The notes beneath the pieces are model-generated. The model did no database searches, was not told the origin of the DNA, and saw only the letters and a program-made list of their open reading frames with translations. Positions 9,001 through 29,304 of a stretch of 29,409 bases of DNA are shown here, piece by piece. Location: positions 496,001 to 525,409 of the forward strand of contig JASTWF010000337.1 in the NCBI GenBank assembly GCA_030390025.1, in the 5' to 3' direction. The DNA comes from Squalus acanthias (Eukaryota). A program made the position numbers and the translations under genes. Every line of letters begins with the position of its first letter. The first letter of the stretch is position 1.

Positions 9001-12000
9001 TTCAGTGCTCACTGTGTGGGGTTCAGTGCAGTGTATGGTGTCGGGGTACAGTGCTCACTGTGTGGGGTTCAGTGCAGTGTATGGTGTCGGGGTACAGTTC
9101 ACTGTGTGGGGTTCAGTGCAGTGTATGGAGTCTGGGTACAGCGCTCACTGTGTGGGGTTCAGTGCAGTGTATGGAGTCTGGGTACATGGGCCCACTGTGT
9201 GGGGTACAGTGCAGTGTATGGTGTCGGGGTTCAGTGTAGTGTATGGAGTCTGGGTACAGTGCTCACTGTGTGGGGTACAGTGCAGTGTATGGAGTCTGGG
9301 TTCAGTGCAGTGTATGGAGTCTGGGTTTAGTGCAGTGTATGGAGTCTGGGTACAGTGCTCAATGTGTGGGGTTCAGTGCAGTGTATGGAGTCTGGGTACA
9401 GTGCAGTGTGTGGAGTCTGGGTTCAGTGCAGTTTTTGGTGTCTGGGTACTGTGCAGTGTATGGAGTCTGGGTACAGCGCTCACTGTGTGGGGTTCAGTGC
9501 AGTGTATGGAGTCGGGGTACAGTGCCCACTGTGTGGGGTTCAGTGCAGTGTATGGAGTCTGGGTACAGTGCCCACTGTGTGGGGTACAGTGCAGTGTATG
9601 GAGTCTGGGTACAGTTCACTGTGTGGGGTTCAGTGCAGTGTATGGAGTCTGGGTACAGTGCTCACTCTGTGGGGTTCAGTGCAGTGTATGGAGTCTGGGT
9701 GCAGTGCTCACTCTGTGGGGTTCAGTGTAGTGTATGGTGTCGGGGTACAGTGCCCACTGTGTGGGGTTCAGTGCAGTGTATGGAGTCTGGTACAGTGCTC
9801 ACTGTGTGGGGTTCAGTGCAGTGTATGGAGTCTGGGTACAGTGCTCACTCTGTGGGGTTCAGTGTAGTGTATGGTGTCGGGGTACAGTGCCCACTGTGTG
9901 GGGTTCAGTGCAGTGTATGGAGTCTGGTACAGTGCTCACTGTGTGGGGTTCAGTGCAGTGTATGGTGTCGGGGTTCAGTGCAGTGTATGGAGTCTGGGTG
10001 CAGTGCTCACTGTGTGGGGTACAGTGCTGTGTATGGAGTCTGCTACAGTGCCCACTGTGTGGGGTACAGTGCAGTGTATAGTGTCTGGGTACTGTGCTCA
10101 CTGTGTGGGGTTCAGTGCAGTGTATGGTGTCGGGGTTCAGTGCAGTGTATGGTGTCGGGGTACAGTGCCCACTGTGTGGGGTTCAGTGCAGTGTATGGAG
10201 TCTGGGTACAGTGCTCACTGTGTGGGGTTCAGTGCAGTGTATGGAGTCTGGGTTCAGTGCTCACTGTGTGGGGTTCAGTGCAGTGTATGGTGTCGGGGTA
10301 CAGTTCACTGTGTGGGGTTCAGTGCAGTGTATGGAGTCTGGGTACAGTGCTCACTGTGTGGGGTTCAGTGCAGTGTATGGAGTCTGGGTACATGGGCCCA
10401 CTGTGTGGGGTACAGTGCAGTGTATGGTGTCGGGGTTCAGTGTAGTGTATGGTGTCGGGGTACAGTGCAGTGTATGGAGTCTGGGTACAGTGCTCACTGT
10501 GTGGGGTACAGTGCAGTGTATGGAGTCTGGGTTCAGTGCAGTGTATGGAGTCTGGGTTTAGTGCAGTGTATGGAGTCTGGGTACAGTGCTCAATGTGTGG
10601 GGTTCAGTGCAGTGTATGGAGTCTGGGTACAGTGCAGTGTGTGGAGTCTGGGTTCAATGCAGTGTATGGTGTCTGGGTACTGTGCAGTGTATGGAGTCTG
10701 GGTACAGTGCTCACTGTGTGGGGTTCAGTGCAGTGTATGGAGTCTGGGTTCAGTGCTCACTGTGTGGGGTTCAGTGCAGTGTATGGAGTCTGGGTACAGC
10801 GCTCACTGTGTGGGGTTCAGTGCAGTGTATGGAGTCTGGGTTCAGTGCTCACTGTGTGGGGTTCAGTGCAGTGTATGGAGTCTGGGTTCAGTGCTCACTG
10901 TGTGGGGTTCAGTGCAGTGTATGGAGTCGGGGTACAGTGCTCACTGTGTGGGGTTCAGTGCAGTGTATGGTGTCGGGGTTCAGTGCAGTGTATGGAGTCT
11001 GGGTTCAGTGCAGTGTATGGTGTTGGGGTACAGTGCAGTGTATGGTGTCGGGGTACAGTGTCCACTGTGTGGGGTTCAGTGCAGTGTATGGAGTCTGGGT
11101 ACAGTGCTCACTGTGTGGGGTTCAGTGCAGTCTCTGGAGTCTGGGTACAGTGCAGTGTATGGTGTCGGGGTTCAGTGCAGTGTATGGAGTCTGGGTACAG
11201 TGCAGTGTATGGTGTCGGGGTTCAGTGCAGTGTATGGAGTCTGGGTTCAGTGCAGTGTATGGAGTCGGGGTTCAGTGCAGTGTATGGTGTCGGGGTTCAG
11301 TGCAATGTATGGAGTCTGGGTTCAGTGCTCACTGTGTGGGGTTCAGTGCAGTGTATGGAGTCTGGGTGCAGTGCTCACTGTGTGGGGTTCAGTGCAGTGT
11401 ATGGTGTCGGGGTTCAGTGCCCACTGTGTGGGGTACAGTGCAGTGTATGGAGTCTGGGTACAGTGCTCACTGTGTGGGGTTCAGTGCAGTGTATGGAGTC
11501 TGGGTACAGTGCTCACTCTGTGGGGTTCAGTGCAGTGTATGGAGTCTGGGTACAATGCTCACTGTGTGGGGTTCAGTGCAGTGTATGGAGTCTGGCTACA
11601 GTGCTCACTGTGTGGGGTTCAGTGCAGTGTATGGTGTCGGGGTTCAGTGCTCACTGTGTGGGGTTCAGTGCAGTGTATGGAGTCTGGGTAAAGTGCTCAC
11701 TGTGTGGGGTTCGGTGCAGTGTATGGTGTCTGGGTACAGTGCAGTGTATGGTGTCGGGGTTCAGTGCAGTGTATGGTGTCGGGGTACAGTGCAGTGTATG
11801 GTGTTGGGGTACGGTGCTCACTGTATGGGGTTCAGTGCTCACTGTGTGGGGTTCAGTGCAGTGTATGGAGCCTGGGTACAGTGCTCAGTGTGGGGTCAGT
11901 GCAGTGTATGGTGTCGGGGTTCAGTGCAGTGTATGGTGTCGGGGTACGGTGCTCACTGTATGGGGTACAGTGCTGTGTATAGTGTCTGGGTACAGTGCCC

Positions 12001-15000
12001 ACTGTGTGGGGTTCAGTGCAGTGTATGGTGTCTGGGTACTGTGCCCACTGTGTGGGGTTCAGTGCAATGTATGGTGTCGGGGTACAGTGCTCACTGTGTG
12101 GGGTTCAGTGCAGTGTATGGAGTCTGGGTACAGTGCCCACTGTGTGGGGTTCAGTGCAGTGTATGGAGTCTGGCTATAGTGCCCACTGTGTGGGGTACAG
12201 TGCAGTGTATGGAGTCTGGGTACAGTGCTCACTGTGTGGGGTTCAGTGCAGTGTATGGAGTCTGGGTACAGTGCGCACTGTGTGGGGTTCAGTGCAGTGT
12301 ATGGTGTCGGGGTACAGTGCCCACTGTGTGGGGTTCAGTGCTGTGTATGGAGTCTGGGTGCAGTGCTCACTGTGTGGGGTTCAGTGCAGTGTATGGAGTC
12401 TGGGTACAGTGCTCACTCTGTGGGGTTCAGTGCAGTGTATGGTGTCGGGGTACAGTGCCCACTGTGTGGGGTTCAGTGCAGTGTATGCAGTCTGGGTACT
12501 GTGCTCACTGTGTGGGGTTCAGTGCAGTGTATGGTGTCGGGGTTCAGTGCAGTGTATGGTGTCGGGGTACAGTGCCCACTGTGTGGGGTTCAGTGCAGTG
12601 TATGGAGTCTGGGTACAGTGCTCACTCTGTGGGGTTCAGTGCAGTGTATGGTGTCGGGGTACAGTGCCCACTGTGTGGGGTACAGTGCAGTGTATAGTGT
12701 CTGGGTACTGTGCTCACTGTGTGGGGTTCAGTGCAGTGTATGGTGTCGGGGTTCAGTGCAGTGTATGGTGTCGGGGTACAGTGCCCACTGTGTGGGGTTC
12801 AGTGCAGTGTATGGAGTCTGGGTGCAGTGCTCACTGTGTGGGGTACAGTGCTGTGTATGGAGTCTGCTACAGTGCCCACTGTGTGGGGTACAGTGCAGTG
12901 TATAGTGTCTGGGTACTGTGCTCACTGTGTGGGGTTCAGTGCAGTGTGTGGTGTCGGGGTTCAGTGCAGTGTATGGAGTCGGGGTACAGTGCTCACTGTG
13001 TGGGGTTCAGTGCAGTGTATGGAGTCTGGGTTCAGTGCTCACTGTGTGGGGTTCAGTGCAGTGTATGGTGTCGGGGTACAGTGCTCACTGTGTGGGGTTC
13101 AGTGCAGTGTATGGTGTCGGGGTACAGTTCACTGTGTGGGGTTCAGTGCAGTGTATGGAGTCTGGGTACATGGGCCCACTGTGTGGGGTACAGTGCAGTG
13201 TATGGTGTCGGGGTTCAGTGTAGTGTATGGAGTCTGGGTACAGTGCTCACTGTGTGGGGTACAGTGCAGTGTATGGAGTCTGGGTTCAGTGCAGTGTATG
13301 GAGTCTGGGTTTAGTGCAGTGTATGGAGTCTGGGTACAGTGCTCAATGTGTGGGGTTCAGTGCAGTGTATGGAGTCTGGGTACAGTGCAGTGTGTGGAGT
13401 CTGGGTTCAGTGCAGTTTTTGGTGTCTGGGTACTGTGCAGTGTATGGAGTCTGGGTACAGTGCCCACTGTGTGGGGTTCAGTGCAGTGTATGGAGTCTGG
13501 GTACAGTGCTCACTGTGTGGGGTTCAGTGCAGTGTATGGAGTCTGGGTTCAGTGCTCACTGTGTGGGGTTCAGTGCAGTGTATGGAGTCTGGGTACAGCG
13601 CTCACTGTGTGGGGTTCAGTGCAGTGTATGGAGTCTGGGTTCAGTGCTCACTGTGTGGGGTTCAGTGCAGTGTATGGAGTCTGGGTTCAGTGCTCACTGT
13701 GTGGGGTTCAGTGCAGTGTATGGAGTCGGGGTACAGTGCTCACTGTGTGGGGTTCAGTGCAGTGTATGGTGTCGGGGTTCAGTGCAGTGTATGGAGTCTG
13801 GGTTCAGTGCAGTGTATGGTGTTGGGGTACAGTGCAGTGTATGGTGTCGGGGTACAGTGTCCACTGTGTGGGGTTCAGTGCAGTGTATGGAGTCTGGGTA
13901 CAGTGCTCACTGTGTGGGGTTCAGTGCAGTGTCTGGAGTCTGGGTACAGTGCAGTGTATGGTGTCGGGGTTCAGTGCAGTGTATGGAGTCTGGGTACAGT
14001 GCAGTGCAGTGTATGGAGTCTGGGTTCAGTGCAGTGTATGGAGTCGGGGTTCAGTGCAGTGTATGGTGTCGGGGTTCAGTGCAATGTATGGAGTCTGGGT
14101 TCAGTGCTCACTGTGTGGGGTTCAGTGCAGTGTATGGAGTCTGGGTGCAGTGCTCACTGTGTGGGGTTCAGTGCAGTGTATGGAGTCTGGGTACAGTGCT
14201 CACTGTGTGGGGTTCAGTGCAGTGTATGGAGTCTGGGTACAGTGCTCACTCTGTGGGGTTCAGTGCAGTGTATGGAGTCTGGGTACAATGCTCACTGTGT
14301 GGGGTTCAGTGCAGTGTATGGAGTCTGGCTACAGTGCTCACTGTGTGGGGTTCAGTGCAGTGTATGGTGTCGGGGTTCAGTGCTCACTGTGTGGGGTTCA
14401 GTGCAGTGTATGGAGTCTGGGTACAGTGCCCAGTGTGTGGAGTTCAGTGTAGTGTATGGAGTCTGGGTACAGTGCTCACTGTGTGGGGTTCAGTGTAGTG
14501 TATGGAGTCTGGGTACAGTGCTCACTGTGTGGGGTTCAGTGCAGTGTATGGTGTCGGGGTTCAGTGCTCACTGTGTGGGGTTCAGTGCAGTGTATGGAGT
14601 CTGGGTACAGTGCTCACTGTCTGGGGTTCAGTGCAGTGTATGGAGTCTGGGTACAGTGCTCACTGTGTGGGGTTCAGTGCATTGTGTGGTGTCGGGGTAC
14701 AGTGCTCACGGTCTGGGGTTCAGTGCAGTGTATGGAGTCTGGGTACAGTGCCCACAGTGTGGGGTTCAGTGCAGTATATGGTGTCGGGGTTCAGTGCTCA
14801 CTGTGTGGGGTTCAGTGCAGTGTGTGGTGTCTGGGTACAGTGCTCACTGTCTGGGGTTCAGTGCAGTGTGTGGTGTCGGGGTTCAGTGCTCACTGTGTGG
14901 GGTTCAGTGCAGTGTGTGGTGTTGGGGTACAGTGCTCACTGTGTGGGGTTCAGTGCAGTGTATGGTGTCGGGGTTCAGTGCTCACTGTCTGGGGTTCAGT

Positions 15001-15068
15001 GCAGTGTATGGAGTCTGGGTACAGTGCTCACTGTCTGGGGTTCAGTGCAGTGTATGGAGTCTGGGTAC
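1..15068. repeat. Intronic compound satellite/minisatellite with two related monomers, A (25 bp, cagtgcagtgtatggWgtcKgggtW) and B (21 bp, cagtgcYcactgtgtggggtW), mostly as AB 46-mers with runs of A; extends beyond the window start
   Basis: Read directly from the sequence. The array ends at ...gagtctgggtac (15068), 35 bp from the SGSM3 exon donor. Rare variants recur at multi-kb spacing. Confidence 0.98.
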
Positions 15069-15103
15069 ATTACCTGTCTGACTCAGCAGTACCTCACACC
15101 TAC

Positions 15104-15259
15104 CGTGATGATGTCATTTTTACGGAATCCAAGCTCATCGTCATCATGACGTTCGAAATCTAACAGCGCCTTGGCTCTGCGCCTTCGATTACGCGACACG
15201 GCAACGTAGTTCTCATGGTCCTTCTGGTGGCTCTCCATGGAGTAGTCTGGGGTCAGCTC
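15104..15259 (-). CDS. SGSM3: SGSM3 (small G protein signaling modulator 3) coding exon, 156 nt, phase 0/0, including the start of the SH3 domain
   Basis: Manual translation of the minus strand gives [52 protein letters not shown], which matches the vertebrate SGSM3 segment as I recall it. [16 protein letters not shown] is the SH3 signature. Acceptor is gacag|GAG and donor is ACG|gtaggt. The supplied ORF track does not show this exon. Confidence 0.96.
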
Positions 15260-15659
15260 CTGTCAAGGGAGAGACGGTTCACTCGCTTGCTTAGTACATT
15301 CCACAAACACAGCGGGTCAGGCATGGTATGGTGACAGGTGCGTCTCGAGAGACAGAAGGGATTTAGGGATATGAGGAATCTCTGGGTAGGTGGGTGTGAT
15401 CTAAACCTTGCGCAGCTTAAGATAAAGGTCACCTTCACCTGGAACTTAACAGTAAAATATAGAATAATTTTTAAATATTACACAATCTATAGGCTACTAA
15501 ACAAAAGAAGAAGAAATGTGTCATTGGGCATAAACAACTCTGTCCCTTTTCCAGAAATCAACTGCACCTACCCACTATATCCCGTCACCCCACCTACCCA
15601 ATATAGTCGTTAACCCCACGTATCCACACTTCGATCTCACCATTCAACATTGCCCTTCA

Positions 15660-18248
15660 ATCCCACCCAGTCCCTCAACCCCGCCCGCCCCGTCCCTCAA
15701 CCCCGCACGCCCCGTCCCTCAACCCCGCCCGCCCAGCCACTCCCTCAACCCCACCCGCCCCGTCCCTCAACCCCGCCCGCCCAGCCACTCCCTCAACCCC
15801 GCTCGCCCCGTCCCTCAACCCCGCCCGTCCCGTCCCTCAACCCCACACACTCACCCAGTCCCTCAACCCCGCCCGCCCCGTCCCTCAACCGCGCCCGCCC
15901 CGTCCCTCAACCCCGCCCGCCCCGTCCCTCAACCCCGCCCGCCCCGTCCCTCAACCCCGCCCGCCCCGTCCCTCAACCCCGCCCAGCCACTCCCTCAACC
16001 CCGCCCAGCCACTCCCTCAACCCCGCCCAGCCCCGTCCCTCAACCCCGCCCGCCCCGTCCCTCAACCCCACACCCACCCAGTCCCTCAACCCCACACACC
16101 CACCCAAACCCTCAACCCCACACACCCACCCAATCCCTCAACCCCACACACCCACCCAATCCCTCAACCCCACACACCCACCCAATCCCTCAACCCCACA
16201 CACCCACCCAATCCCTCAACCCCACACACCCACCCAATCCCTCAACCCCACACCCACCCAATCCCTCAACCCCACACACCCACCCAATCCCTCAACCCCA
16301 CACACCCACCCAATCCCTCAACCCCACACACCCACCCAATCCCTCAACCCCACACACCCACCCAATCCCTCAACCCCACACACCCACCCAATCCCTCAAC
16401 CCCACACACCCACCCAATCCCTCAACCCCACACACCCACCCAATCCCTCAACCCCCCACACCCACCCAATCCCTCAACCCCCCACACCCACCCAATCCCT
16501 CAACCCCCACACACCCACCCAATCCCTCAACCCCCCACACCCACCCAATCCCTCAACCCCCCACACCCACCCAATCCCTCAACCCCCCACACCCACCCAA
16601 TCCTCAACCCCCCACACCCACCCAATCCCTCAACCCCCCACACCCACCCAATCCCTCAACCCCCCACACCCACCCAATCCCTCAACCCCACACACCCACC
16701 CAATCCCTCAACCCCACACACCCACCCAATCCCTCAACCCCACACACCCACCCAATCCCTCAACCCCACCTCGCCCAATCCCTCAACCCCACCTCGCCCA
16801 ATCCCTCAACCCCCCACACCTCGCCCAATCCCTCAACCCCACACCCACCCAATCCCTCAACCCCACACACCCACCCAATCCCTCAACCCCCCACACCCAC
16901 CCAATCCCACAACCCCACACACCCACCCAATCCCTCAACCCCACACCCACCCAATCCCTCAACCCCCCACACCCACCCAATCCCTCAACACCCCACACCC
17001 ACCCAATCCCTCAACCCCACACCCACCCAATCCCTCAACCCCACACACCCACCCAATCCCTCAACCCCACACACCCACCCAATCCCTCAACCCCACACAC
17101 CCACCCAATCCCTCAACCCCACACCCGCCCAATCCCTCAACCCCCCACACCCGCCCAATCCCTCAACCCCACACCCACCCAATCCCTCAACCCCACACAC
17201 CCACCCAATCCCTCAACCCCCCACACCCACCCAATCCCTCAAACCCCACACCCACCCAATCCTTCAACCCCACACCCACCCAATCCCTCAACCCCACACC
17301 CACCCAATCCCTCAACCCCACACACCCACCCAATCACTCAACCCCACACACCCACCCAATCCCTCAACCCCACACACCCACCCAATCCCTCAACCCCACA
17401 CACCCACCCAATCCCTCAACCCCACACACCCACCCAATCCCTCAACCCCACACACCCACCCAATCCCTCAACCCCACACACCCACCCAATCCCTCAACCC
17501 CACACCCGCCCAATCCCTCAACCCCCCACACCCGCCCAATCCCTCAACCCCACACCCACCCAATCCCTCAACCCCACACCCACCCAATCCCTCAACCCCA
17601 CACCCACCCAATCCCTCAACCCCACACACCCACCCAATCTCTCAACCCCACACACCCACCCAATCCCTCAACCCCACACCCGCCCAATCCCTCAACCCCC
17701 CACACCCCCCCAATCCCTCAACCCCACACCCACCCAATCCCTCAACCCCACACCCACCCAATCCCTCAACCCCACACCCACCCAATCCCTCAACCCCACA
17801 CACCCACCCAATCCCTCAACCCCACACACCCACCCAATCCCTCAACCCCACACCCACCCAATCCCTCAACCCCACACCCACCCAATCCCTCAACCCCACA
17901 CCCACCCAATCCCACAACCCCACACCCACCCAATCCCTCAACCCCACACCCACCCAATCCCTCAACCCCACACACCCACCCAATCCCTCAACCCCACACA
18001 CCCACCCAATCCCTCAACCCCACACCCACCCAATCCCTCAACCCCACACCCACCCAATCCCTCAACCCCACACCCACCCAATCCCACAACCCCACACCCA
18101 CCCAATCCCACAACCCCACACACCCAATCCCTCAACCCCACCCACCCACCCAATCCCTCAACCCCACCCACCCACCCAATCCCTCAACCCCACACACCCC
18201 CCAATCCCTCAACCCCATACACCCAGCCAATCCCTCAATCCCACCCAC
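15660..18248. repeat. C-rich minisatellite: 22-26 bp CpG-containing units at left (ccctcaaccccgcccgccccgt), grading into 24/26 bp units (ccctcaacccca(ca)cacccacccaat)
   Basis: Tandem structure seen directly. The 915 aa Pro/Thr/His ORF is its translation. Confidence 0.97.
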
Positions 18249-18249
18249 A

Positions 18250-18500
18250 TCATTCAACTTCACATGGCTACCTTGTCTTCATATCCTCCAATCCCTTCTC
18301 TCCAAAAACACATCTAATTGTCTCTTCACCATGTATATACTCTCTGCTTCAATGTTCTCTGCTAATTTATTCCACAACTTCATTACACTTTGGGTGAAAA
18401 GGTACCCCCGATTTCCCTTCTTACTCCTAATATTTCAATTGTAACATCAGTCCCTGCTTTGTGCACCTTCATCACAATGAATAATGACCTGGAACAGTTC
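18250..18500 (-). mobile_element. Old, degraded CR1 LINE 3' fragment (ORF2 C-terminus)
   Basis: The minus strand reads ..LFTQSVMKLWNKLAENIEAESIYMVKRQLDVFL..GYEDK.., resembling the CR1 ORF2 end FTQRVVNLWNSLPQRAVEAQSLSIFKTEIDRFL..GYGD seen in the younger copies in this window. Confidence 0.7.
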
Positions 18501-18521
18501 CCATTTCACCAACTTCCCTTC

Positions 18522-18631
18522 CAAGAACCACAGAAGGAGGCCATTCATCCCACCTTGTCTGCGCCAGCCCATCGCCAGAGCAATCAGAACTAGCCTTCCG
18601 CTGCTGCAAATGCCTAACCACTTCTCCCCTT
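18522..18631 (-). mobile_element. 3' end/3' UTR of an old CR1 LINE; the body continues at 22443-22930
   Basis: The minus strand reads (ttc)aaggggagaagtggttaggcatttg (FKG..RHL-like), then gctggcgcagacaaggtgggatgaatggcctccttctgtg. This resembles the CR1 terminal motif gggccgaatggcct..ttctgtgctgt, also seen at ~26940-26970. Confidence 0.7.
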
Positions 18632-18807
18632 GAAATATGCACTGGTCTCCAGCTCACTCACTGTGTGGAAATATGCACTGGTCTCCAGCTCACTCACTCA
18701 CTGTGTGTGGAAATATGCACTGGTCTCCAGCTCACTCACTGTGTGTGGAAATATGCACTGGTCTCCAGCTCGCTCACTCACTGTGTGGAAATATGCACTG
18801 GTCTCCA
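18632..18807. repeat. Left part (4 full units + 1 partial) of the gaaatatgcactggtctccagct(cact)2-3(gt)2-3g minisatellite
   Basis: Same unit as 20317-22442; broken off at ..ggtctcca by the CR1 insertion. Confidence 0.97.
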
Positions 18808-20318
18808 ATTTTGGAGTTCATTATTAAGGAAACAGTAACAGGACATTTGGATAATCATAATTTAATAGGACAAAGTCAGCATGGTTTTACGAAGGGGAAG
18901 TCATGTTTGACAAATTTGCTGGAGTTCTTTGAGGAAGTAACATATAGAGTGGATAAAGGGGAACCAGTAGACGTAGTGTATTTAGACTTCCAAAAGGCAT
19001 TTGACAAGGTGCCACACAAAAGATTATTGCTTAAGGTAAAAAATCACGGGATTGGGGGTAATATTCTGGCATGGATAGAGGATTGGCTATCTAACAGAAA
19101 GCAAAGAGTTGGGATAAATGGTTCATTCTCAGACTGGCAATCAGTAACTAGTGGTGTTCCACAGGGGTCAGTGCTGGGTCCCCAACTCTTTACAATCTAT
19201 ATTAACGATTTGGAGGAAGGGACCAAGTGTAACATATCAAAATTTGCAGATGATACTAAGATGGGAGGGAAAGTAGTGAGTGAGGAGGACATAAAAAACC
19301 TGCAAGGGGACATAGACAGGCTAAGTAAGTGGGCAGAGATTTGGCAGATGGAATACAACACTGGAAAGTGTGAGGTGATGCATTTTGGCAGGAAAAATCC
19401 TAGAGCAATTTATTATCTTAATGGCAAGAAACTGGAGAGTACTGAAGTGCAAAGGATCTGGGGGTCCTGGTGCACGAAACTCAAAAGGTTAGTATGCAGG
19501 TGCAGCAAGTGATTAAGAAGGCAAATGGAATGTTGGCTTTCATTGCTAGGGGGATAGAATATAAAAATAGGGAGGTATTGCTTCAGTTGTACAAGGTATT
19601 GGTGAGACCGCACCTGGAATACTGCATACAGTTTTGGTGTCCTTACTTAAGGAAAGACATCCTTGCTCTCGAGGCAGTGCAAAAAAGGTTCACTCGGTTA
19701 ATCCCGGGGATGAGGGGGTGGTCATATGAGGAGAGGTTGTGTAGATTGGGACTCTACTCATTGGAGTTCAGAAGAATGAGAGGCGATCTTATTGAAACAT
19801 ATAAGATTGTGAAGGGGTTGGATCGGGTGGATGCGGGGAGGATGTTCCCTATGACGGGTGAGACTAGAACTAGGGGACATAGTCTTAGAATAAGGGGCTG
19901 CTCTTTCAAAACTGAGATGAGGAGGAACTACTTCACTCAGAGGGTGGTAGGTCCATGGAATATGCTGCCACAAAAAGCTGTAGAAGCTACATCATTAAAT
20001 AAATTTAAAACAGAAATAGACAGTTTCCTAGAAGTAAAGGGCATTAAGGGTTACGGGGAGCGGGCAGGAATTTGGACATGAGTCTAGGTTCGGATCGGTC
20101 ATGGCCCTGTGGGTAGTGGAGCGGGCCCAGGGACCGTGTAGCCTGATTCTGCTCCTATTTCGTGTGTGCCATTCTGTTAGATGCAGGAGATGGTTCTGTG
20201 ATAGTAGATAGTAGATTGGCGGTTAGGATCAGATCAGCCATGATCTTATTGAATGGCGGAGCAGGCTCGAGGGGCCGATTGGCCTACTCCTGCTCCTATT
20301 TCTTATGTTCTTATGTTC
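18808..20318 (+). mobile_element. 5'-truncated, relatively young CR1 LINE (RT domain to 3' tail) inserted in the minisatellite
   Basis: RT motifs QHGFTKGKSCLTNL, YLDFQKAFDKVPH, GVPQGSVLGP and KFADDTK. One 1-bp deletion near 19455 (VQR-DLG) separates ORF 18637-19512 from ORF 19470-20081. Stop at 20081; tail ctcctatttcttatgttcttatgttc. Confidence 0.96.
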
Positions 20319-22442
20319 ACTCACTCACTGTGTGTGGAAATATGCACTGGGCTCCAGCTCACTCACTGTGTGTGGAAATATGCACTGGTCTCCAGCTCAC
20401 TCACTGTGTGTGGAAATATGCACTGGTCTCCAGCTCACTCACTGTGTGTGGAAATATGCACTGGTCTCCAGCTCACTCACTCACTGTGTGTGGAAATATG
20501 CACTGGTCTCCAGCTCACTCACTCACTGTGTGTGGAAATATGCACTGGTCTCCAGCTCACTCACTGTGTGGAAATATGCACTGGTCTCCAGCTCACTCAC
20601 TGTGTGGAAATATGCACTGGTCTCCAGCTCACTCACTCACTGTGTGTGGAAATATGCACTGGTCTCCAGCTCACTCACTGTGTGGAAATATGCACTGGTC
20701 TCCAGCTCACTCACTCACTGTGTGTGGAAATATGCACTGGTCTCCAGCTCACTCACTGTGTGTGGAAATATGCACTGGTCTCCAGCTCACTCACTGTGTG
20801 GAAATATGCACTGGTCTCCAGCTCACTCACTGTGTGTGGAAATATGCACTGGTCTCCAGCTCACTCACTGTGTGGAAATATGCACTGGTCTCCAGCTCAC
20901 TCACTCACTGTGTGTGGAAATATGCACTGGTCTCCAGCTCACTCACTGTGTGGAAATATGCACTGGTCTCCAGCTCACTCACTGTGTGGAAATATGCACT
21001 GGTCTCCAGCTCACTCACTCACTGTGTGTGGAAATATGCACTGGTCTCCAGCTCACTCACTCACTGTGTGTGGAAATATGCACTGGTCTCCAGCTCACTC
21101 ACTCACTGTGTGTGGAAATATGCACTGGTCTCCAGCTCACTCACTGTGTGTGGAAATATGCACTGGTCTCCAGCTCACTCACTGTGTGGAAATATGCACT
21201 GGTCTCCAGCTCACTCACACACTGTGTGTGGAAATATGCACTGGTCTCCAGCTCACTCACACACTGTGTGTGGAAATATGCACTGGTCTCCAGCTCACTC
21301 ACACACTGTGTGTGGAAATATGCACTGGTCTCCAGCTCACTCACTCACTGTGTGTGGAAATATGCACTGGTCTCCAGCTCACTCACTGTGTGTGGAAATA
21401 TGCACTGGTCTCCAGCTCACTCACTGTGTGGAAATATGCACTGGTCTCCAGCTCACTCACTGTGTGGAAATATGCACTGGTCTCCAGCTCACTCACTCAC
21501 TGTGTGTGGAAATATGCACTGGTCTCCAGCTCACTCACTGTGTGTGGAAATATGCACTGGTCTCCAGCTCACTCACTGTGTGTGGAAATATGCACTGGTC
21601 TCCAGCTCACTCACTCACTGTGTGTGGAAATATGCACTGGTCTCCAGCTCACTCACTGTGTGTGGAAATATGCACTGGTCTCCAGCTCACTCACTGTGTG
21701 TGGAAATATGCACTGGTCTCCAGCTCACTCACTCACTGTGTGTGGAAATATGCACTGGTCTCCAGCTCACTCACTGTGTGGAAATATGCACTGGTCTCCA
21801 GCTCACTCACTGTGTGGAAATATGCACTGGTCTCCAGCTCACTCACTGTGTGTGGAAATATGCACTGGTCTCCAGCTCACTCACTGTGTGTGGAAATATG
21901 CACTGGTCTCCAGCTCACTCACTGTGTGGAAATATGCACTGGTCTCCAGCTCACTCACTGTGTGTGGAAATATGCACTGGTCTCCAGCTCACTCACTGTG
22001 TGGAAATATGCACTGGTCTCCAGCTCACTCACTCACTGTGTGTGGAAATATGCACTGGTCTCCAGCTCACTCACTCACTGTGTGTGGAAATATGCACTGG
22101 TCTCCAGCTCACTCACTGTGTGGAAATATGCACTGGTCTCCAGCTCACTCACTCACTGTGTGTGGAAATATGCACTGGTCTCCAGCTCACTCACTGTGTG
22201 TGGAAATATGCACTGGTCTCCAGCTCACTCACTCACTGTGTGTGGAAATATGCACTGGTCTCCAGCTCACTCACTCACTGTGTGTGGAAATATGCACTGG
22301 TCTCCAGCTCACTCACTCACTGTGTGTGGAAATATGCACTGGTCTCCAGCTCACTCAGTGTGTGTGTGGAAATATGCACTGGTCTCCAGCTCACTCACTG
22401 TGTGGAAATATGCACTGGTCTCCAGCTCACTCACTGTGTGTG
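20317..22442. repeat. Right part (roughly 55 units) of the 36/38/42 bp minisatellite, highly homogeneous
   Basis: Seen directly. Length variants come from the number of internal cact and gt repeats; the copy number is estimated from array length divided by unit size. Confidence 0.98.
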
Positions 22443-22930
22443 TCAAAACATTCTGTGTTTCCAGCAGTCTGCTGTGTAAAAAAATCCTAACCTCTCTCCT
22501 GGTGAGAATTTTAAATTGATAATCTGTTGTTCCTGACTCTCACCAGAGGAAATAGTCTGTCCCCATTCAGCTATCAAAACCCTTCACAATTGTAAAAACC
22601 TCTATAGAATTACCTCTTTTCAGTATCTCCTTCCTCCTCATAATTAGAGTTTCTGCTATTATCCTGGTGAGTCTACACTGTAAGTGCGCTACAATTTTAT
22701 TGTCCTTTCCATAATGGGGCTCCCATGCCTATCCACTGCCTTGTACACATTTATCATTACCTCTTTGCTCTTGTAGATTACGCTCCCTTTATAGAACCTA
22801 AAAGGCTATTGAGCTTTTGACGGCTTTCTATCCATCTGCACTTGCACGTTCAAGAAATTACACATTTGGACCCCACCTTCCCAATCTTCAACATCTTTGC
22901 ACCGTGTCTATCCTCCGTTACAAATCCAGA
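22443..22930 (-). mobile_element. Old, degraded CR1 ORF2 C-terminal segment, collinear with 18522-18631 across the minisatellite
   Basis: Minus-strand remnants in CR1 order: GVQMCNFLNV, AVK..LLG, IKGSVIYKSKEVMINVYKA, RLTRII, RGNSIEVFTIVKGFD, RREVRIFFTQ, ending at gaatgttttgacac (WN.LP-like) at the array edge. Confidence 0.75.
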
Positions 22931-23098
22931 CAGCCTCTTGGGTTTAGTGGTGTTAGTCGCTCGCGGAAACAGCCTGGCCATCTTACTTCTTATGAGAGCT
23001 AAGTCACACTGCCTTATATCTGCTGTACAAGAGCAGAACTCGGGGTGTAACCATATTGACCCCTTGAGACCTGAACCTGATATTCGTATCTTTCTTCC

Positions 23099-23584
23099 AC
23101 ATTAATAAACTTGCAGAATGGGCGTAAGTGGCAAATGAACTTCAATATAGCTAAGTGTGAGGTGGTACAATTTGGTAGGACGAGTAAGGAGGCCACGTAG
23201 TGCTTGGATAATAAGTGTCTAAATGGGGTAGAGGAGCAGGGGGATCTGGGGGTACAGATACACAAATCACTAAAAGGAGAGATAAACAAACAAGGCCCTG
23301 AGGTTTATTTCTAGAGGGATAGAATTGAAAAGCAGGGAAGTTATGTTAAACTTGTATGGAACCTTGGTTAGACCACACTTGGAGTACTGTGCACAGTTCT
23401 GGTCTCCATATTTTAAAAAGGATATAGAGGCACTGGAGAAGGAGCAAAAACGATTTACCAGAATGATACCAGAACTGAGAGGTTATACCTATCAGGAAAG
23501 ATTGAATAGGCTGGAACTCTTTTCTATAGAAAAGAGAATACTGAGGGATGAACAAATAGAGGTCTTTAAGATAGGGTAGACATA
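23099..23584 (+). mobile_element. Intermediate-age CR1 LINE, 5' part (interrupted by the minus-strand CR1)
   Basis: INKLAEWA..WQMNFNIAKCEVVQFGR, then KSREVMLNLYGTLVRPHLEYCAQFWSPY..RFTRMIP..EVFK, ending at gatagggtagacata. Contains stops and indels. Confidence 0.9.
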
Positions 23585-26500
23585 TAAACATAAGAAATAG
23601 GAGCAGGAGTAGGCCATTTGGCCCTTCGAGCCTGCCTCACCATTCAATAAGATCATGGCTGATCTTCTACCTCATCTCCACTTTCCTGCACTATCCCCAT
23701 ATCCCTTGATTCCCTTAATATTCAAAAATCTATCTATCTCTGTCTTGAATATACTCAACGACTGAGCCTCCACAGCCCTCTGGGGTAGAGAATTCCAAAG
23801 ATTCACCACCCTCTGAGTGAAGAAATTTCTCCTCATCTCAGTCCTAAACGGCCGACCCCTTATTCTGAGACTGTGACCCCTGGTTCTAGACTCCCCAGCC
23901 AGGGGAAACATCATCCCTGCATCTACCCAGTCAAGTCCTGTAAGAATTTTGTATGTTTCAATGAGATCACCTCTCATTCTTCTAAACTCTAAAGAATATA
24001 GGCCTAGTCTACTCAATCTCTCCTCATAGGACAATCCCCCAAATCCCAGGAACCAGTCTGGTGAACCTTCGTTGCACTCCCTCTATGGCAAGTATATCCT
24101 TCCTTAGGTAAGGAGACCAAAACTGTACACAATACTCCAGGTGTGGTCTCACCAGGGCCCTATATAATTGCAATAAGACGGCTTTACTCTTATACTCAAA
24201 TGCTCTTGTAATAAAGGCCAACATACCATTTGCTTTCCTAATTGCTTGCTGTACCTGCATGTTAACTTTCAGTGATTCGTGTACAAGGACACCCAGGTCC
24301 CTCTGAACACCAACAGTTCCCAATCTCTCTCCATTTAAAAAATACTCTGCTTTTCTATTTTTCCTACCAAAGTGGATAACTTCACATTTCTCCACCTTAT
24401 AATCCATTTGCCATGTTCTTGCCCACTCACTGAGCCTGTCTATATCCCCTTGAAGCCTCCTTGCATCCTCCTCACAACTTACATTCCCACCCAGCTTTGT
24501 ATCATCAGCAAACTTGGATACGTTACATTTGGTCCCCTCATCCAAATCATTGATGTAGATTGTGAATAGCTGAGGCCCAAACACTGATCCTTGCGGTATC
24601 CCACTAGTTACAGCCTGCCAACCCGAAAATGACCTGTTTATTCCTACTCTCTATTTTCTGTCCGTTAACCAATCCTCAATCCATGCTAGTATATTACCCC
24701 CAATCCCATGAGCCCTAATTTTGTTTAATAACCTCTTGTGTGGCACCTTATCGAATGCCTTCTGAAAATCCAAATACACCACATCCACTGGTTCTCCCTT
24801 ATCTATTCTGTTACTTACAATCTCAAAAAATTCTAACAGATTTGTCAAACACGATTTCCCTTTCAGAAATCCATGTTGACTCTGCCCAATCCTATTATTA
24901 TTTTCTAAGTGCCCTGTTACCACGTCATTAATAATAGATTCTAGCATTTTCCCTACTACTGATGTCAGGCTAACTGGTCTGTAGTTCCCCGTTTTCTCTC
25001 TCCCTCATTTCTTAAATAGTGGGGTTACATTTGCCATCTTCCAATCCGCAGGAACCGTTCTAGATTCTATGGAATTTTGGAAAATGACAACCAATGGATC
25101 CACTATCTCTATAGCCATCTCTTTCAAAACCCTAGGATATAGGCCATCAGGACCAGGGGATTTATCGTCTTTCAGTCCCATTAATTTCTCCAGTACTATT
25201 TTTTTACTAATACCAATTTCTTTCAGTTCCTCATTCTCACTAGAGCCTTGGTTCTCCACTATTTCCGGGAAGTTTTTTGTGTCTTCTTCCGTGAAGACAG
25301 ACACAAAGTATTTGTTTAATTTCTCTGCCATTTCCTTATTCCTCATTATAATTTCTCCTGTCTCAGCCTGTAAGGGACCCACATTTACATTCGCTAATCT
25401 TTTCCTTTTTACATACCTACAGAAGCTTTTACAATCTGTTTTTATGTCTCTCATTAGTTTACTCTTATTTTATTTTCCCTTTCTTGATCAATTTCTTGGT
25501 CCTCCTTTGCTGAATTCTAAAATCCTCCCAATCCTCAGGCTTACTACTCTTTTTAGCAACATTATAAGCCTCTTCCTTTGATTTAATACTATCTTTAATT
25601 TCTCTTGTTAGACACAGTTGGACCACTTTTCCTGTGGGGTTTTTGTGCCTTAAAGGAATGTATATTTGTTGTAAATTATGTATTAATTCTTTAAATGCTA
25701 GCCATTGCTTGTTTACCGTCAAACCTTTCAATGTAGTTTCCCAATCTACCTTAGCCAACTCGCCCCTCATACCTACGTAGTTTGCTTTGTTTAGATTTAA
25801 GACCCTAGTTTCGGATTTAACGAAAACACTTTCAAACTCAATATAAAATTCTATCATATTATGGTCACTCTTCCCTAAAGGCTCCTTTACTACAAGGTTA
25901 TTAATTAACCCTTTCTCATTGCACAATACTAGATCTAAAATAGCCTGTTCCCTAGTTGGTTCCTCAACATACTGATCTGGAAAACTATTTTGCATACATT
26001 CCATGAATTCGTCCTCCACACTATTACTGCAAATTTGGTTTGCCCAGTCAAGATGAAGATTAAAGTTCCCCATGATTACTGTATTACCCTTGTTACATGC
26101 GCCTCTAAATTCCTGATTTCTACTCTGTCCTACATTACAACTACTGTTTGGGGGCCTATAAACAACTCCCACCAATATTTTCTGCCCCTTGCTGTTTCTT
26201 AGCTCCACCCAAACTCATTCTACTTCTTGATTTTCAGAGCCAAGATCCTTTCTCTCTACTGTCTTTATCCCATCCTTTATTATCAGGGCTACCCCTCCTC
26301 CTTTTCCATTTTGCCTATCTCTTCTAAAAGTTAAGTATCCTGGAATATTTAGTTACCAACCTTGGCCACTTTGCAACCACGTTTCCGTTATGGTTATTTG
26401 ATCAAACCTGTTAATTTCTATCTGTGCTATTAATTCATCTATTTTGTTGCAAATGCTTCGCGCATTCATATATAGTGCCTTTAGCTTTGACTTATTTCTA

Positions 26501-26654
26501 TTTTTCCCTTGTGTCACCTTAGTCACTGATGCCTTATTACTCTTGTTACTCTCGCTGTCCCTTCCTGATGCACTCTGCTTATTTTTACCCAAAACTCTAC
26601 TCTGCTCTCGAGCCTTGACATTTCTCTCACTGCTCTTAAATTTACTCTTTCCTG
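23585..26654 (-). mobile_element. CR1 LINE with near-complete ORF2 (APE endonuclease + reverse transcriptase), inactivated by frameshifts and stops, 5'-truncated
   Basis: Collinear ORF pieces: LYMNARSICNK..ITETW, GVVYRPP, MGNFN, LDLVL, LGKSDH (APE endonuclease); KSPGPDG, QHGFLKGKSCLTNL, LDFQKAFDKVPH, KFADDTK (RT); 3' UTR and ttatg tail at ~23585. Confidence 0.97.
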
Positions 26655-26975
26655 CATAGAGAAGATGTTTGCACTTGCGAGGGAGACCAGAACATAGGAC
26701 CATAAATGTAAGATAGTCACTAATAAATCCATTAGGGAATTCAGGAGAAACTTTATGCAGAGAGTGGTTAGAATGTGGAACTCGCTACCACAAGGAGTAG
26801 TTGAGGCGAATACCATAGATGAATTCAAGGGGAAGCTCGATAAGCATGAGAGAAAGGAATAGAAGGATCTGTTGATGTGGTTAGAAGAAGAAGGGTGGGA
26901 GGAGGCTCGTGTGGGGCATAAACATTGGCATGGACCAGTCGGCCTGAATTACCTGTTTCTGTGCTGTAAATACTT
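26655..26975 (+). mobile_element. Intermediate-age CR1 LINE, 3' part and 3' UTR (continuation of 23099-23584)
   Basis: Resumes at catagagaagatgttt (D-IEKMF), then REFRRNF..QRVVRMWNSLPQGVVEANTIDEFKGKLDKH, then the terminal motif ..cctgtttctgtgctgtaaat. Confidence 0.9.
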
Positions 26976-27391
26976 TCCAAAGGCCAACTAACTGGACACA
27001 TGGTGCCGGTAAGCTTCATACGAATCGTTAAACAGATTAGTTTTATAGTAAGACGAACATACAGAGCAACATTTATGATCAGATTCACTTAGTTCAATTT
27101 ATCTTTGCATAATGATACAAAATAAGGAACATGCCACACTTCTCCGTATCAGTGGGTCATGTTACTTTACTTAAAGGGTCTTCTAACTATTCTCCAGCAT
27201 TTCTAACCCATTTACTTCAGTGAAGGCCCTCACTGCATTCCCTTCAACCAAACTGCTAGCATGTGGGTCTTTTTTACTTTGTTCCCATCCCCACAGGAAT
27301 TGGAGCTTAGTTTGTGACTCTTCTGTCCAGGGTGTGGCCAAAGCAGCCACTAAACCTGTCACCATGGCCCCTCCTTTGGAACACCAGCTTC

Positions 27392-27743
27392 ACAGGGTAG
27401 ACTCTGGGAGGATGTTTCCCCTGGTTGGGGAGTCTAGAACCAGGGGTCACAGTCTCAGAATAAGGGGTCGGCCATTTAGGACTGAGATGAGGAGAAATTT
27501 CTTCACTCAGAGGGTGGTGCATCTTTGGAATTCTCTACCCCAGAGGGCTGTGGAGGCTCAGTCGTTGAGTATATTCAAGATAGAGATCGATAGATTTCTG
27601 AATATTAAGGGAATCAAGGGATATGGGGATAGTGCAGGAAAGTGGAGATGAGGTAGAAGATCAGCCATGATCTTATTGAATGGCGGAGCAGACTCGAAGG
27701 ACCAAATGGCCGACTCCTGCTCCTATTTCTTATGTTCTTATGT
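27392..27743 (+). mobile_element. Short (~350 bp) 5'-truncated CR1 copy, same subfamily as 23585-26654
   Basis: RVDSGRMFPLVGESRTRGHSLRIRGRPFRTEMRRNFFTQRVV..GKWR*, 3' UTR and tcttatgttcttatgt tail. About 19 mismatches in ~350 nt against the reverse complement of 23580-23931 by manual count. Confidence 0.95.
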
Positions 27744-27744
27744 C

Positions 27745-28300
27745 CCACTCTTCATTTCTCTTCCCAAAATCCATTAACTCTCAGTTATCTGCATTAAAAT
27801 TCATCCAGCAGCAAATTCCAAGATCCTGCTCCTTTGGCCCGTGTCCAAATATACTAGAGACAGACCCCTAGGGTGTATATTTCTAACACTCATCCAATCT
27901 GAGTACCACCCATTTATCCGAACTTCGTGTCCTGCACTTTAGACACATTTCTCAAGTTATAATCCCTGTCCAATTCTCTATGCACGCTGCTACATTTTTC
28001 TGATACCATGCACCTGAATTTCTAACAAGCCTGCTGTGAAACATCTTTATCAAATGTCTTTCAAATCCAATCCAAATCTTCGAAAAAATTCAGAACTCAA
28101 AAAATGCTATTAAATCCATTTATCAGGCATTTCCACAGTCTCTCCGCATCCAAAGGCGATAAGCACACATCATTAACTTTCTTCAGAACTTGGGGACATA
28201 ACTATGTTCCAAATAAGGCCTGTTCAAAAGAATAAATTAGTCTTACCAGGAATTTCTTTGACTTTATTTCAAAAAACTGCTCATTCTATTTTGGCCACAG
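27745..28300 (-). mobile_element. Very old, degraded CR1-like RT fragment
   Basis: Minus-strand remnants in RT order: cctggtaagact (PGNYRP-like), ggaaatgcctgataaat (KSCLTN-like), KTFDK..HSRL, WMNFNADN*ELMDFGKRNEE. Confidence 0.6.
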
Positions 28301-28313
28301 AGACAACAGGTAT

Positions 28314-28612
28314 GGACTCACCCACTGCCCCTCCCCCCCCACTCCGCGGGTCAACGGATCGGGACTGACTCACCCTCTGCCCCTTCCCCCCAGCCCGCCC
28401 ACTCCGTGGGACAACGGATCGGGACTGACACACACACTGCCCCTCTCCCCCCCCCCACTCCGCGGGTCAATGGATTGGGACTGACTCACCCACTGCCCCT
28501 TCCCCCCCACTCCGCGGGTTAATGGATTGGGACTGACTCACCCACTGCCCCTTCCCCCCCACTCCGCGGGTCAACGGATTGGGACTGACTCACCCACTGC
28601 CCCTCCCCACAG
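28314..28612. repeat. GC-rich minisatellite, ~52-60 bp unit gggactgactcacccactgcccct(c)nactccgcgggtcaacggatY, about 5.5 copies
   Basis: Unit starts at ~28361, 28421, 28477, 28529 and 28581, plus a partial copy at 28314. Confidence 0.93.
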
Positions 28613-28877
28613 GCCACTCCACCGGGACCACGGGTATGGAGCAAGCTCTTGGTTAGGACCCTCCGGTGATGTGGAGATGAGACTCCAAACTGGTCCAAAC
28701 TTTGGGAAGTCGCACTACAGGCTGCAAAGACATAGCCGCCCTACTCCTGTCCTGCTTTGTGTGTATCAGTATACACCTTGGGATATATCCTGATGGCGGT
28801 GGCAGCTGCTCTAATGGAGCTAGAGTTGTCATGTGGCTCTGTATCGCGTGCCAGTTCTTCCTTTGCCGTTTACTCAC

Positions 28878-29008
28878 AATGCTGCAATTTTTGGGGTCCA
28901 GGCATTGAAAGTGTCGAGCTACTTGCAGAATGGCTTCTCGTAAATCTGCTACCAACTCAGTCTGTTTAATGTTTTTTGCCTTCAGTGCCTCAGCATCTTC
29001 ATTGTCAC
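28878..29008 (-). CDS. SGSM3: SGSM3 coding exon, 131 nt (phase 1 start, phase 0 end)
   Basis: (G)[43 protein letters not shown], inside ORF 28653-29096. Polypyrimidine tract with ttgacag| acceptor; ATT|gtgagt donor. Matches SGSM3 ..[36 protein letters not shown] as I recall it. Confidence 0.95.
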
Positions 29009-29304
29009 CTGTCAATAAGAGAGTAAGAAAGAGTATGAAAGTAAGCGAGCAAATGAGCGTGAGTGAGCAGTGCAAGTGAAGCACTTCAGTCAACAATTAG
29101 GAAAACAGCACCATCAAAACACAAAAAGGATGTGCCTGGCAGGTCGGTCAATATGCGTCACTTTGCACCCACTCACTCGTCATTACCTCATCAGGAGTCT
29201 TCTCATTAAGTCAGCGAGGTGCTCGGTCACACAGCTCGGAGAATCCTGAACGCTCAATACGTAAATGCACAATCTAGGATGGCATGGAGATGAGAGGCTG
29301 TGGT

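What the first reader, a model, noticed from the sequence alone, without database searches (positions are those of the whole stretch)
18522..22930. A minisatellite apparently born from the 3' end of a CR1 LINE, then split by a younger CR1
Seen: on the minus strand an old CR1 runs ..RREVRIFFTQ..gaatgttttgacac straight into the array. One array unit reads aca-gtg-agt-gag-ctg-gag-acc-agt-gca-tat-ttc (TVSELETSAYF). On the far side the sequence resumes aaggggagaagtggttaggcatttg (KG..RHL-like) followed by a CR1 3' terminal motif. Collapsing the array to one unit restores the CR1 ORF2 C-terminal pattern WN.LP..V.E..T...FKG.LD.HL (compare WNSLPQGVVEANTIDEFKGKLDKH at ~26775-26850). Inference: a 36 bp piece of a dead LINE was amplified about 60-fold in place, probably seeded by the internal (cact)n/(gt)n slippage tracts. 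The order would be old CR1, then satellite birth, then young CR1 insertion, then one-sided expansion.
Basis: partly seen in the sequence, partly recalled or inferred. Interest (0 to 1): 0.72.

Follow-up and report, generated by a model that had tools for sequence, protein, structure and literature searches.

The report
Intronic minisatellite born from dead LINE
A 59-copy tandem repeat in an intron of a shark-like fish grew out of 38 bases of an old, dead jumping gene and was later cut by a younger one; the record is unusually clean, but repeats born this way are a well-known kind.

Summary
Confirmed in the main. The array has 58 whole units of 36-42 bp plus one split unit. It lies inside a decayed minus-strand CR1 in an SGSM3-like intron of a cartilaginous fish. 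The unit is CR1 ORF2 DNA in register: its peptide's best of 194 placements on an outside CR1 profile is the one the flanks predict (p=0.002), and it matches a neighbouring CR1 at 22/38 bases (p=5e-5). A young 5'-truncated CR1 (18808-20318) cuts one unit, with 2-3 bp lost and no target duplication.

Two inferences fail or stay open. Seeding by (CACT)n/(GT)n slippage is not supported: the tracts lie inside the unit and the length variants travel as whole units. One-sided expansion after the insertion is unproven: all three main unit types occur on both sides. A relative about 6% diverged appears to carry the tandem too. No single-unit state was seen directly, and other arrays in the genome could not be searched.

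Transposon-derived minisatellites are a known class (at least 23% of human ones). This scan already noted three LINE-born satellites on other DNA of this genome. New member of a known kind; low interest.

The parts
22443..22925 (-). Old decayed CR1 LINE, 5'-truncated, ORF2 C-terminal region upstream of the unit
   Evidence: Profile hits at nodes 4-52 (17.3 bits) and 61-150 (20.8 bits). Many paralogous contigs lie on 22485-22605 and 22727-22775 in 4 of 4 runs.
20337..22442 (.). Main block of the minisatellite, 54 units of 36-42 bp; the last unit (22405-22442, 38 bp) is in CR1 register
20318..20336 (.). Distal 19 nt of the split unit (42-bp type)
   Evidence: Junction printed; sequence
18808..20318 (+). 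Young 5'-truncated CR1: RT domain and ORF2 C-terminus, one frameshift near 19450, no stop in 421 codons, doubled 3' tail, ends in short TTCTTATG repeats; 2-3 bp of target lost, no target duplication
   Evidence: Pfam RVT_1 E=1e-24; homologues in sharks and rays 66-73% identical among named hits
18632..18807 (.). Short block of the minisatellite: units of 36, 42, 38 and 40 bp, then the first 20 nt of the split unit
18522..18631 (-). Old CR1 continued: last ORF2 codons and 3' tail motif (about 18529-18565)
   Evidence: Continues the alignment to the CR1 at 26650-26985. Tail motif matches 4 of 5 window tails weakly, p 0.01-0.15.
15107..15261 (-). Host-gene exon (context): start of the SH3 domain of SGSM3/RUTBC3
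   Evidence: PDB 2yuo, RUN and TBC1 domain containing 3, E=3.6e-11; Pfam SH3_1
28875..29009 (-). Probable upstream exon of the same gene (context); its assignment to SGSM3 is recalled, not tested
   Evidence: Open frame; no Pfam hit

Best explanation
A single-locus, non-coding minisatellite derived from a transposon. (1) An old CR1 inserted in the sense orientation of an SGSM3-like intron and decayed (shown). (2) A 38-bp piece of its ORF2 end was duplicated head to tail in place (shown by register). The first duplication had no usable flanking repeat, so its trigger is unknown; a blunt local duplication during repair or replication is my guess (inferred). (3) The array grew and was kept uniform by whole-unit unequal exchange or gene conversion. 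A few one-off slips in the internal tracts made the 36- and 42-bp types, which then spread as whole units (inferred from their linkage). (4) A young CR1 inserted into a 42-bp unit near one end of an already diversified array, with a 2-3 bp target truncation (shown). (5) Turnover probably continued afterwards away from the insertion (weakly inferred). No function is implied.
For: Register: the unit peptide's best of 194 placements on a profile of 82 outside CR1 proteins is the predicted column; p=0.002 against 20,000 base shuffles; flank-to-flank spacing 73 nt against 72 in the consensus. DNA: 22/38 identity to the nearest CR1 at the anchored register, p=5e-5, best of 5 copies tested. Gap-free alignment through the unit. 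Junctions. Linkage of tract lengths, p=1.4e-4. Both of the 2 substitutions in the 27-nt core of 57 units lie in the two whole units that touch the insertion (noticed after the fact). Organism G holds the orthologous flank about 6% diverged; its contig begins inside the last unit, and contigs crossing the unit-to-unit junction give depth 102-190 against 11-20 on the flank. Precedent for the class: PMC3389668, PMC3648361.
Against: The unit scores only 2.2 bits on the profile where true homologues score 12-28. The other 4 window copies match it at 8-14/38, not significant. The left flank is weakly CR1-like on its own. No paralogous or orthologous single-unit sequence was read across the unit. No genome was held, so a true subfamily consensus and a genome-wide unit search are missing.
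Confidence: 0.87

Rival explanations
1. One reading: internal (CACT)n/(GT)n slippage seeded the duplication, and most of the 54 right-hand units arose after the young CR1 inserted (one-sided expansion).
For: The tracts exist and lie at one end of the unit. The right block is very uniform, with 3 substitution events in about 2.1 kb. Private substitutions sit next to the insertion, so turnover after the insertion is likely.
Against: No exact microhomology at the ends; the near-repeat is at background level. Tract lengths are linked across units. All main types are on both sides and the split unit is the 42-bp type. A 5:54 split has 15% probability by chance. A tandem is indicated in organism G, which probably diverged before the insertion. 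Homogenisation explains uniformity without net growth.
Confidence: 0.2
2. The unit is a dispersed satellite family that arose once from a CR1 elsewhere (or inside a mobile CR1 subfamily) and was carried or converted into this homologous CR1 copy.
For: Records matching the unit appear in organism C at depth 37-41 against 7.5 on the flank, source unknown. A genome-wide search was impossible.
Against: The last unit runs seamlessly into the decayed flank, and organism G shows the same junction. No look-alike among the scan's noted windows of this genome (weak). Organism B, with hundreds of CR1 paralogue contigs laid, shows depth 0 on the unit.
Confidence: 0.1
3. An unrelated minisatellite replaced or sits between two separate CR1 fragments, and the likeness to ORF2 is chance.
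For: Low absolute profile score of the unit; weak left flank.
Against: Needs the length to fit within 1 nt and two tests against different references to be met by chance (p=0.002 protein, p=5e-5 DNA).
Confidence: 0.03

Closest known systems
Human TE-derived minisatellites (Ahmed and Liang 2012, PMC3389668; abstract, first part of Results and section 3.4 read)
   Same: A piece of a retrotransposon amplified in place. They count 7,276 of 31,472 human minisatellites as TE-derived, 601 from L1, mostly single-locus. Only 6% show a flanking direct repeat or an incomplete end unit; no flanking direct repeat is seen here either.
   Different: Parent is a CR1 in a cartilaginous fish; 59 copies against typically 2-3; later split by another LINE.
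Chicken HinfI (SCR1) repeat and chicken centromeric CR1-related satellites (seen only as cited in the reviews PMC9659126 and PMC6947457; passages read)
   Same: Tandem repeat related to the CR1 ORF2 end and 3' UTR.
   Different: As cited, the CR1 piece is embedded in the monomer of a satellite. Here the whole 38-bp monomer is ORF2 DNA and the parent copy still flanks it on both sides.
Maize CRM1TR and CRM4TR arrays (PMC3648361; passages read)
   Same: Arrays derived wholly from a retrotransposon, homogenised locally, and interrupted by later retrotransposon insertions used to date them.
   Different: LTR element, monomers of 700-800 nt, centromeric.
Minisatellites from Alu, B1 and MaLR; Haber and Louis flanking-repeat model (seen as cited in PMC6947457; passages read)
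   Same: Short units expanded inside an interspersed repeat.
   Different: The 5-10 bp flanking direct repeats that the model needs are not found here above background.

Membership tests
TE-derived minisatellite | Head-to-tail array of units of about 10-100 bp | tested here: met
   58 whole units of 36-42 bp plus a split one
TE-derived minisatellite | Unit is homologous to a transposon sequence | tested here: met
   Best of 194 profile placements, p=0.002; 22/38 DNA identity, p=5e-5
TE-derived minisatellite | Array lies collinearly inside the parent copy | tested here: met
   Spacing 73 against 72 nt; gap-free alignment through the unit; profile alignment extends across it
TE-derived minisatellite | Single-unit state in an outgroup orthologue or subfamily consensus | tested here: inconclusive
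   Organism B's orthologous contig runs 666 letters past 22575 unbroken and the unit has depth 0, but the letters were not shown; organism G appears tandem
Single-locus (not dispersed) minisatellite | Unit in tandem at this locus only | not testable with these tools
   No genome held; scan notes show no look-alike, which is weak
Haber-Louis flanking-repeat origin | Direct repeats of 5-10 bp at both ends of the founder unit | tested here: not met
   No exact overlap at the ends; best 9-mer 6/9, reached at 14% of background positions
CR1-clade LINE (young copy) | Non-LTR reverse transcriptase with CR1-type ORF2 C-terminus | tested here: met
   Pfam RVT_1; relatives in sharks, rays, turtles and birds. 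The clade name rests on the motif pattern and tail as recalled; no Dfam or Repbase here.
CR1-clade LINE (young copy) | 5' truncation, short-repeat 3' tail, no or altered target site | tested here: met
   Junctions; target-site truncation as a known outcome in PMC4494074 (passage read)
CR1-clade LINE (old copy) | Both flanks belong to one subfamily | tested here: inconclusive
   Both flanks continue one alignment to the copy at 26650-26985, but no subfamily library was available and an invertebrate DNA profile was too distant

The most novel reading that the evidence does not exclude
In this shark lineage dead LINEs are a routine nursery for tandem repeats (this locus plus three others noted by the scan), and this locus is a datable natural experiment. 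The array would have been born after the split from organism B (about 16% diverged) and before the split from organism G (about 6%). It stayed nearly uniform by concerted evolution, and the young CR1 froze the two units beside it, so their private substitutions clock homogenisation along the array. A genome-wide census could show that LINE-born arrays drive intron and genome growth in sharks.
Probability: 0.3. Interest if true: 0.45.

Novelty: new member of a known kind. Interest (0 to 1): 0.27.

Why it matters
It is a well-preserved case of a minisatellite birth, with the parent LINE on both sides and a later insertion as a time mark. It suits a study of how arrays start without flanking repeats (most human TE-derived arrays are unexplained in that respect, PMC3389668) and how an insertion shields neighbouring units. 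Alone it changes nothing: the class, CR1 as a parent, and later insertions into such arrays are all in print, and no effect on the host gene is indicated.

Tried and rejected
No whole genome was held, so no genome-wide unit search or subfamily consensus. Viral contigs: no CR1 relative, 0 matches to a 26-nt unit pattern. Metagenome scan: 80 CR1-like loci at 37-52% protein identity; a DNA profile from 73 of them, with or without 5 window copies, gave 3.6 bits whether the unit was present, absent or shuffled, so it was uninformative. Collapsed element against three window copies (27380-27750, 23100-23580, 15470-15665) did not exceed the highest shuffle; the comparison with 18225-18520 overlapped the query and is void. 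Higher-order structure in unit types: none (adjacent same type 18 against 16.4 expected, p=0.37; longest repeated string 5 against 5.8). Copy number from run X1: not usable; depth on the unit was only 34-38 against 28 on the flank although the window has 59 units, only about 55% of the run was read and a filter drops records. Runs X5 and X10 show no cover or unexplained cover on the unit; treated as hints only. The idea that the neighbouring 26-bp array is also CR1-born: its far side does not align to any of 5 CR1 tails (p 0.16-0.80). Converting 6% divergence to years with the epaulette shark rate of 7e-10 per generation (PMC10587355, abstract only) gives about 4e7 generations per lineage, which is not credible, so no date is given. 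Searches were translations in the wrong frame. Literature searches listed no paper on LINE-born minisatellites in sharks; I saw only listings for most hits, and the library lacks most subscription journals.

Full report
Setting. The window is from a cartilaginous fish: the named relatives closest to the young LINE's protein are from skates, rays and sharks at 66-73% identity. Two minus-strand exons bracket the finding. The one at 15107-15261 matches the SH3 domain of RUN and TBC1 domain containing 3, that is SGSM3 (PDB 2yuo, E=3.6e-11). The one at 28875-29009 is an open frame without a Pfam hit; I assign it to the same gene from recall only. The region is crowded with tandem arrays (46-bp units over 15 kb, 26-bp over 2.6 kb, 52-bp) and CR1 pieces. 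No genome was held.

The array. There are 59 unit starts: 5 at 18632-18807 and 54 at 20337-22442. Of 57 intervals under 60 nt, 22 are 42 bp, 17 are 36, 16 are 38 and 2 are 40. Units differ only in the number of CACT and TG repeats and in a handful of substitutions: 2 in 1,539 core bases.

Is the unit CR1 DNA in register? I built a profile from 82 of the 120 outside homologues, those reaching the C-terminus, leaving out the window's own copy. The right flank alone aligns to nodes 61-150 (20.8 bits). With the array reduced to its last, 38-bp unit the alignment goes on in the same frame to node 188 (27.2 bits). The unit's 11-residue peptide scores best, of 194 possible placements, at exactly the column that the flanks predict, with p=0.002 against 20,000 base shuffles. 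The distance between anchors in the two flanks is 73 nt against 72 in the consensus. At DNA level the unit matches the CR1 at 26650-26985 at 22 of 38 bases in the anchored register (p=5e-5, the best of 5 copies; the other four give 8-14 of 38, not significant). The collapsed element aligns to that copy with no gap through the unit (106 against a highest shuffle of 83). It also beats all 200 shuffles against the young copy and the copy at 23575-24350, though with gaps near the unit.

Against this: the unit's absolute score is 2.2 bits where intact homologues give 12-28; the left flank needs a 1-nt shift after FKG, scores nothing alone on the profile, and its tail motif matches 4 of 5 window tails only at p 0.01-0.15. 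A DNA profile from invertebrate-like CR1 loci was too distant to help. On balance birth in place is well supported.

The young CR1. It spans 18808 to 20316-20318 on the plus strand, starts just before the RT domain (Pfam RVT_1), has one frameshift and no stop in 421 codons, and departs at 0 of 49 strongly conserved profile columns. By a hand estimate from these two counts it has decayed by under about 2%. It cuts a unit after base 20; the far side resumes with the last 19 bases of a 42-bp unit, so 2-3 bp are lost and nothing is duplicated. Target-site truncation is a described outcome of non-LTR insertion (PMC4494074, passage). Whole units on both sides mean that the array came first.

How it grew. 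The internal tracts cannot by themselves copy 38 bp. There is no exact overlap at the array's ends, and the best near-repeat flanking the founder (6 of 9) is reached at 14% of positions in other CR1 copies. Three CACT go with four TG in 22 of 23 such units, whereas two CACT go with either (17 and 16); Fisher p=1.4e-4, one odd unit left out. So the length types arose rarely and spread as whole units, which fits unequal exchange or conversion (inferred). The 36, 38 and 42 types are all among the first three units on the left, and the split unit is a 42, so the array was diversified at insertion, unless units were exchanged across it later. A uniform insertion falls this close to an end 15% of the time. 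One-sided expansion is therefore neither needed nor excluded. Both core substitutions lie in the two whole units touching the insertion (18748, 20337), as expected if these are shielded from homogenisation; this rests on two bases and was noticed after the fact.

Relatives. A search with the right flank listed 24 runs from 7 coded organisms; I laid 4 on 22369-23110 at 80% likeness. Organism G has two contigs covering 22409-23110 with 43 other letters in about 717 (6%) and 21 gap letters, so it is an orthologue. The first contig begins inside the last unit. Depth over the two units is 102-190 against 11-20 on the flank, and no record fits two places, so the records cross the unit-to-unit junction or run off the left end. 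I read this as a tandem in G too; the tool warns that depth is no copy number. At about 3% per lineage this split is probably older than the young CR1 (inferred, not shown). Organism B has a 1,165-letter contig matching 22575-22725 and 22863-23013 at about 84%, with 666 letters before the match and depth 0 on the unit. That hints at no array, but the letters were not shown and an indel could explain it. Organism C has an orthologous piece at about 87% and unexplained cover on the unit. The same-species run gave an allele-like contig (4 other letters in 539) and no usable copy number.

Comparison with the known. Ahmed and Liang count 7,276 of 31,472 human minisatellites as TE-derived, most at one locus, and only 6% explained by flanking repeats or incomplete ends (PMC3389668; abstract, first part of Results, section 3.4). 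Reviews list CR1-related satellites in chicken and LINE ORF2-related satellites in mammals (PMC9659126, PMC6947457; passages). Maize CRM1TR arrays are retrotransposon-born and interrupted by later insertions (PMC3648361; passages). PMC3747384 (passages) gave only the HE1/HER1 pairing in sharks. My searches listed no shark case; supplements were not read, and most subscription papers are outside the library. The scan's own notes hold three other LINE-born satellites in this genome, which I did not check; none matches this unit.

Verdict. The slippage seed is not supported and the one-sided expansion is open. It is a neat new member of a known kind, with no sign of function. Interest 0.27.

Noticed in passing
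window 20085-20178 and 20224-20317: The young CR1 has two 3' tails in tandem, about 70% alike. The distal one is 84-86% like the tails of two other window copies; the proximal one looks decayed. It may be a subfamily that acquired a new tail, or a second short insertion.
   Followed up: partly
window 18803-18816: At the 5' junction of the young CR1 the last 5 target bases are the reverse complement of 5 CR1 bases 4 nt further on, a possible tiny fold-back.
   Followed up: no
window 15662-18248 and 18225-18520: A 104-copy 26-bp array starts right at the ORF2 end of another decayed minus-strand CR1 (28.5 bits on the profile). Its far side did not align to CR1 tails, so a LINE origin is unsupported.
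   Followed up: partly
window 1-15069: A 46-bp array of at least 15 kb runs up to about 40 bases from the SH3 exon and off the window's end, with strong strand skew.
   Followed up: no
window 23579-23935 and 27388-27744: Two CR1 3' ends 94% identical lie in inverted orientation about 3.5 kb apart; with the young copy they could pair in the pre-mRNA.
   Followed up: no
window 21189-21314: Three adjacent units share one substitution, a trace of local serial duplication.
   Followed up: partly
window 28315-28608: A 5-copy 52-bp GC-rich array about 270 bases from the upstream exon.
   Followed up: no
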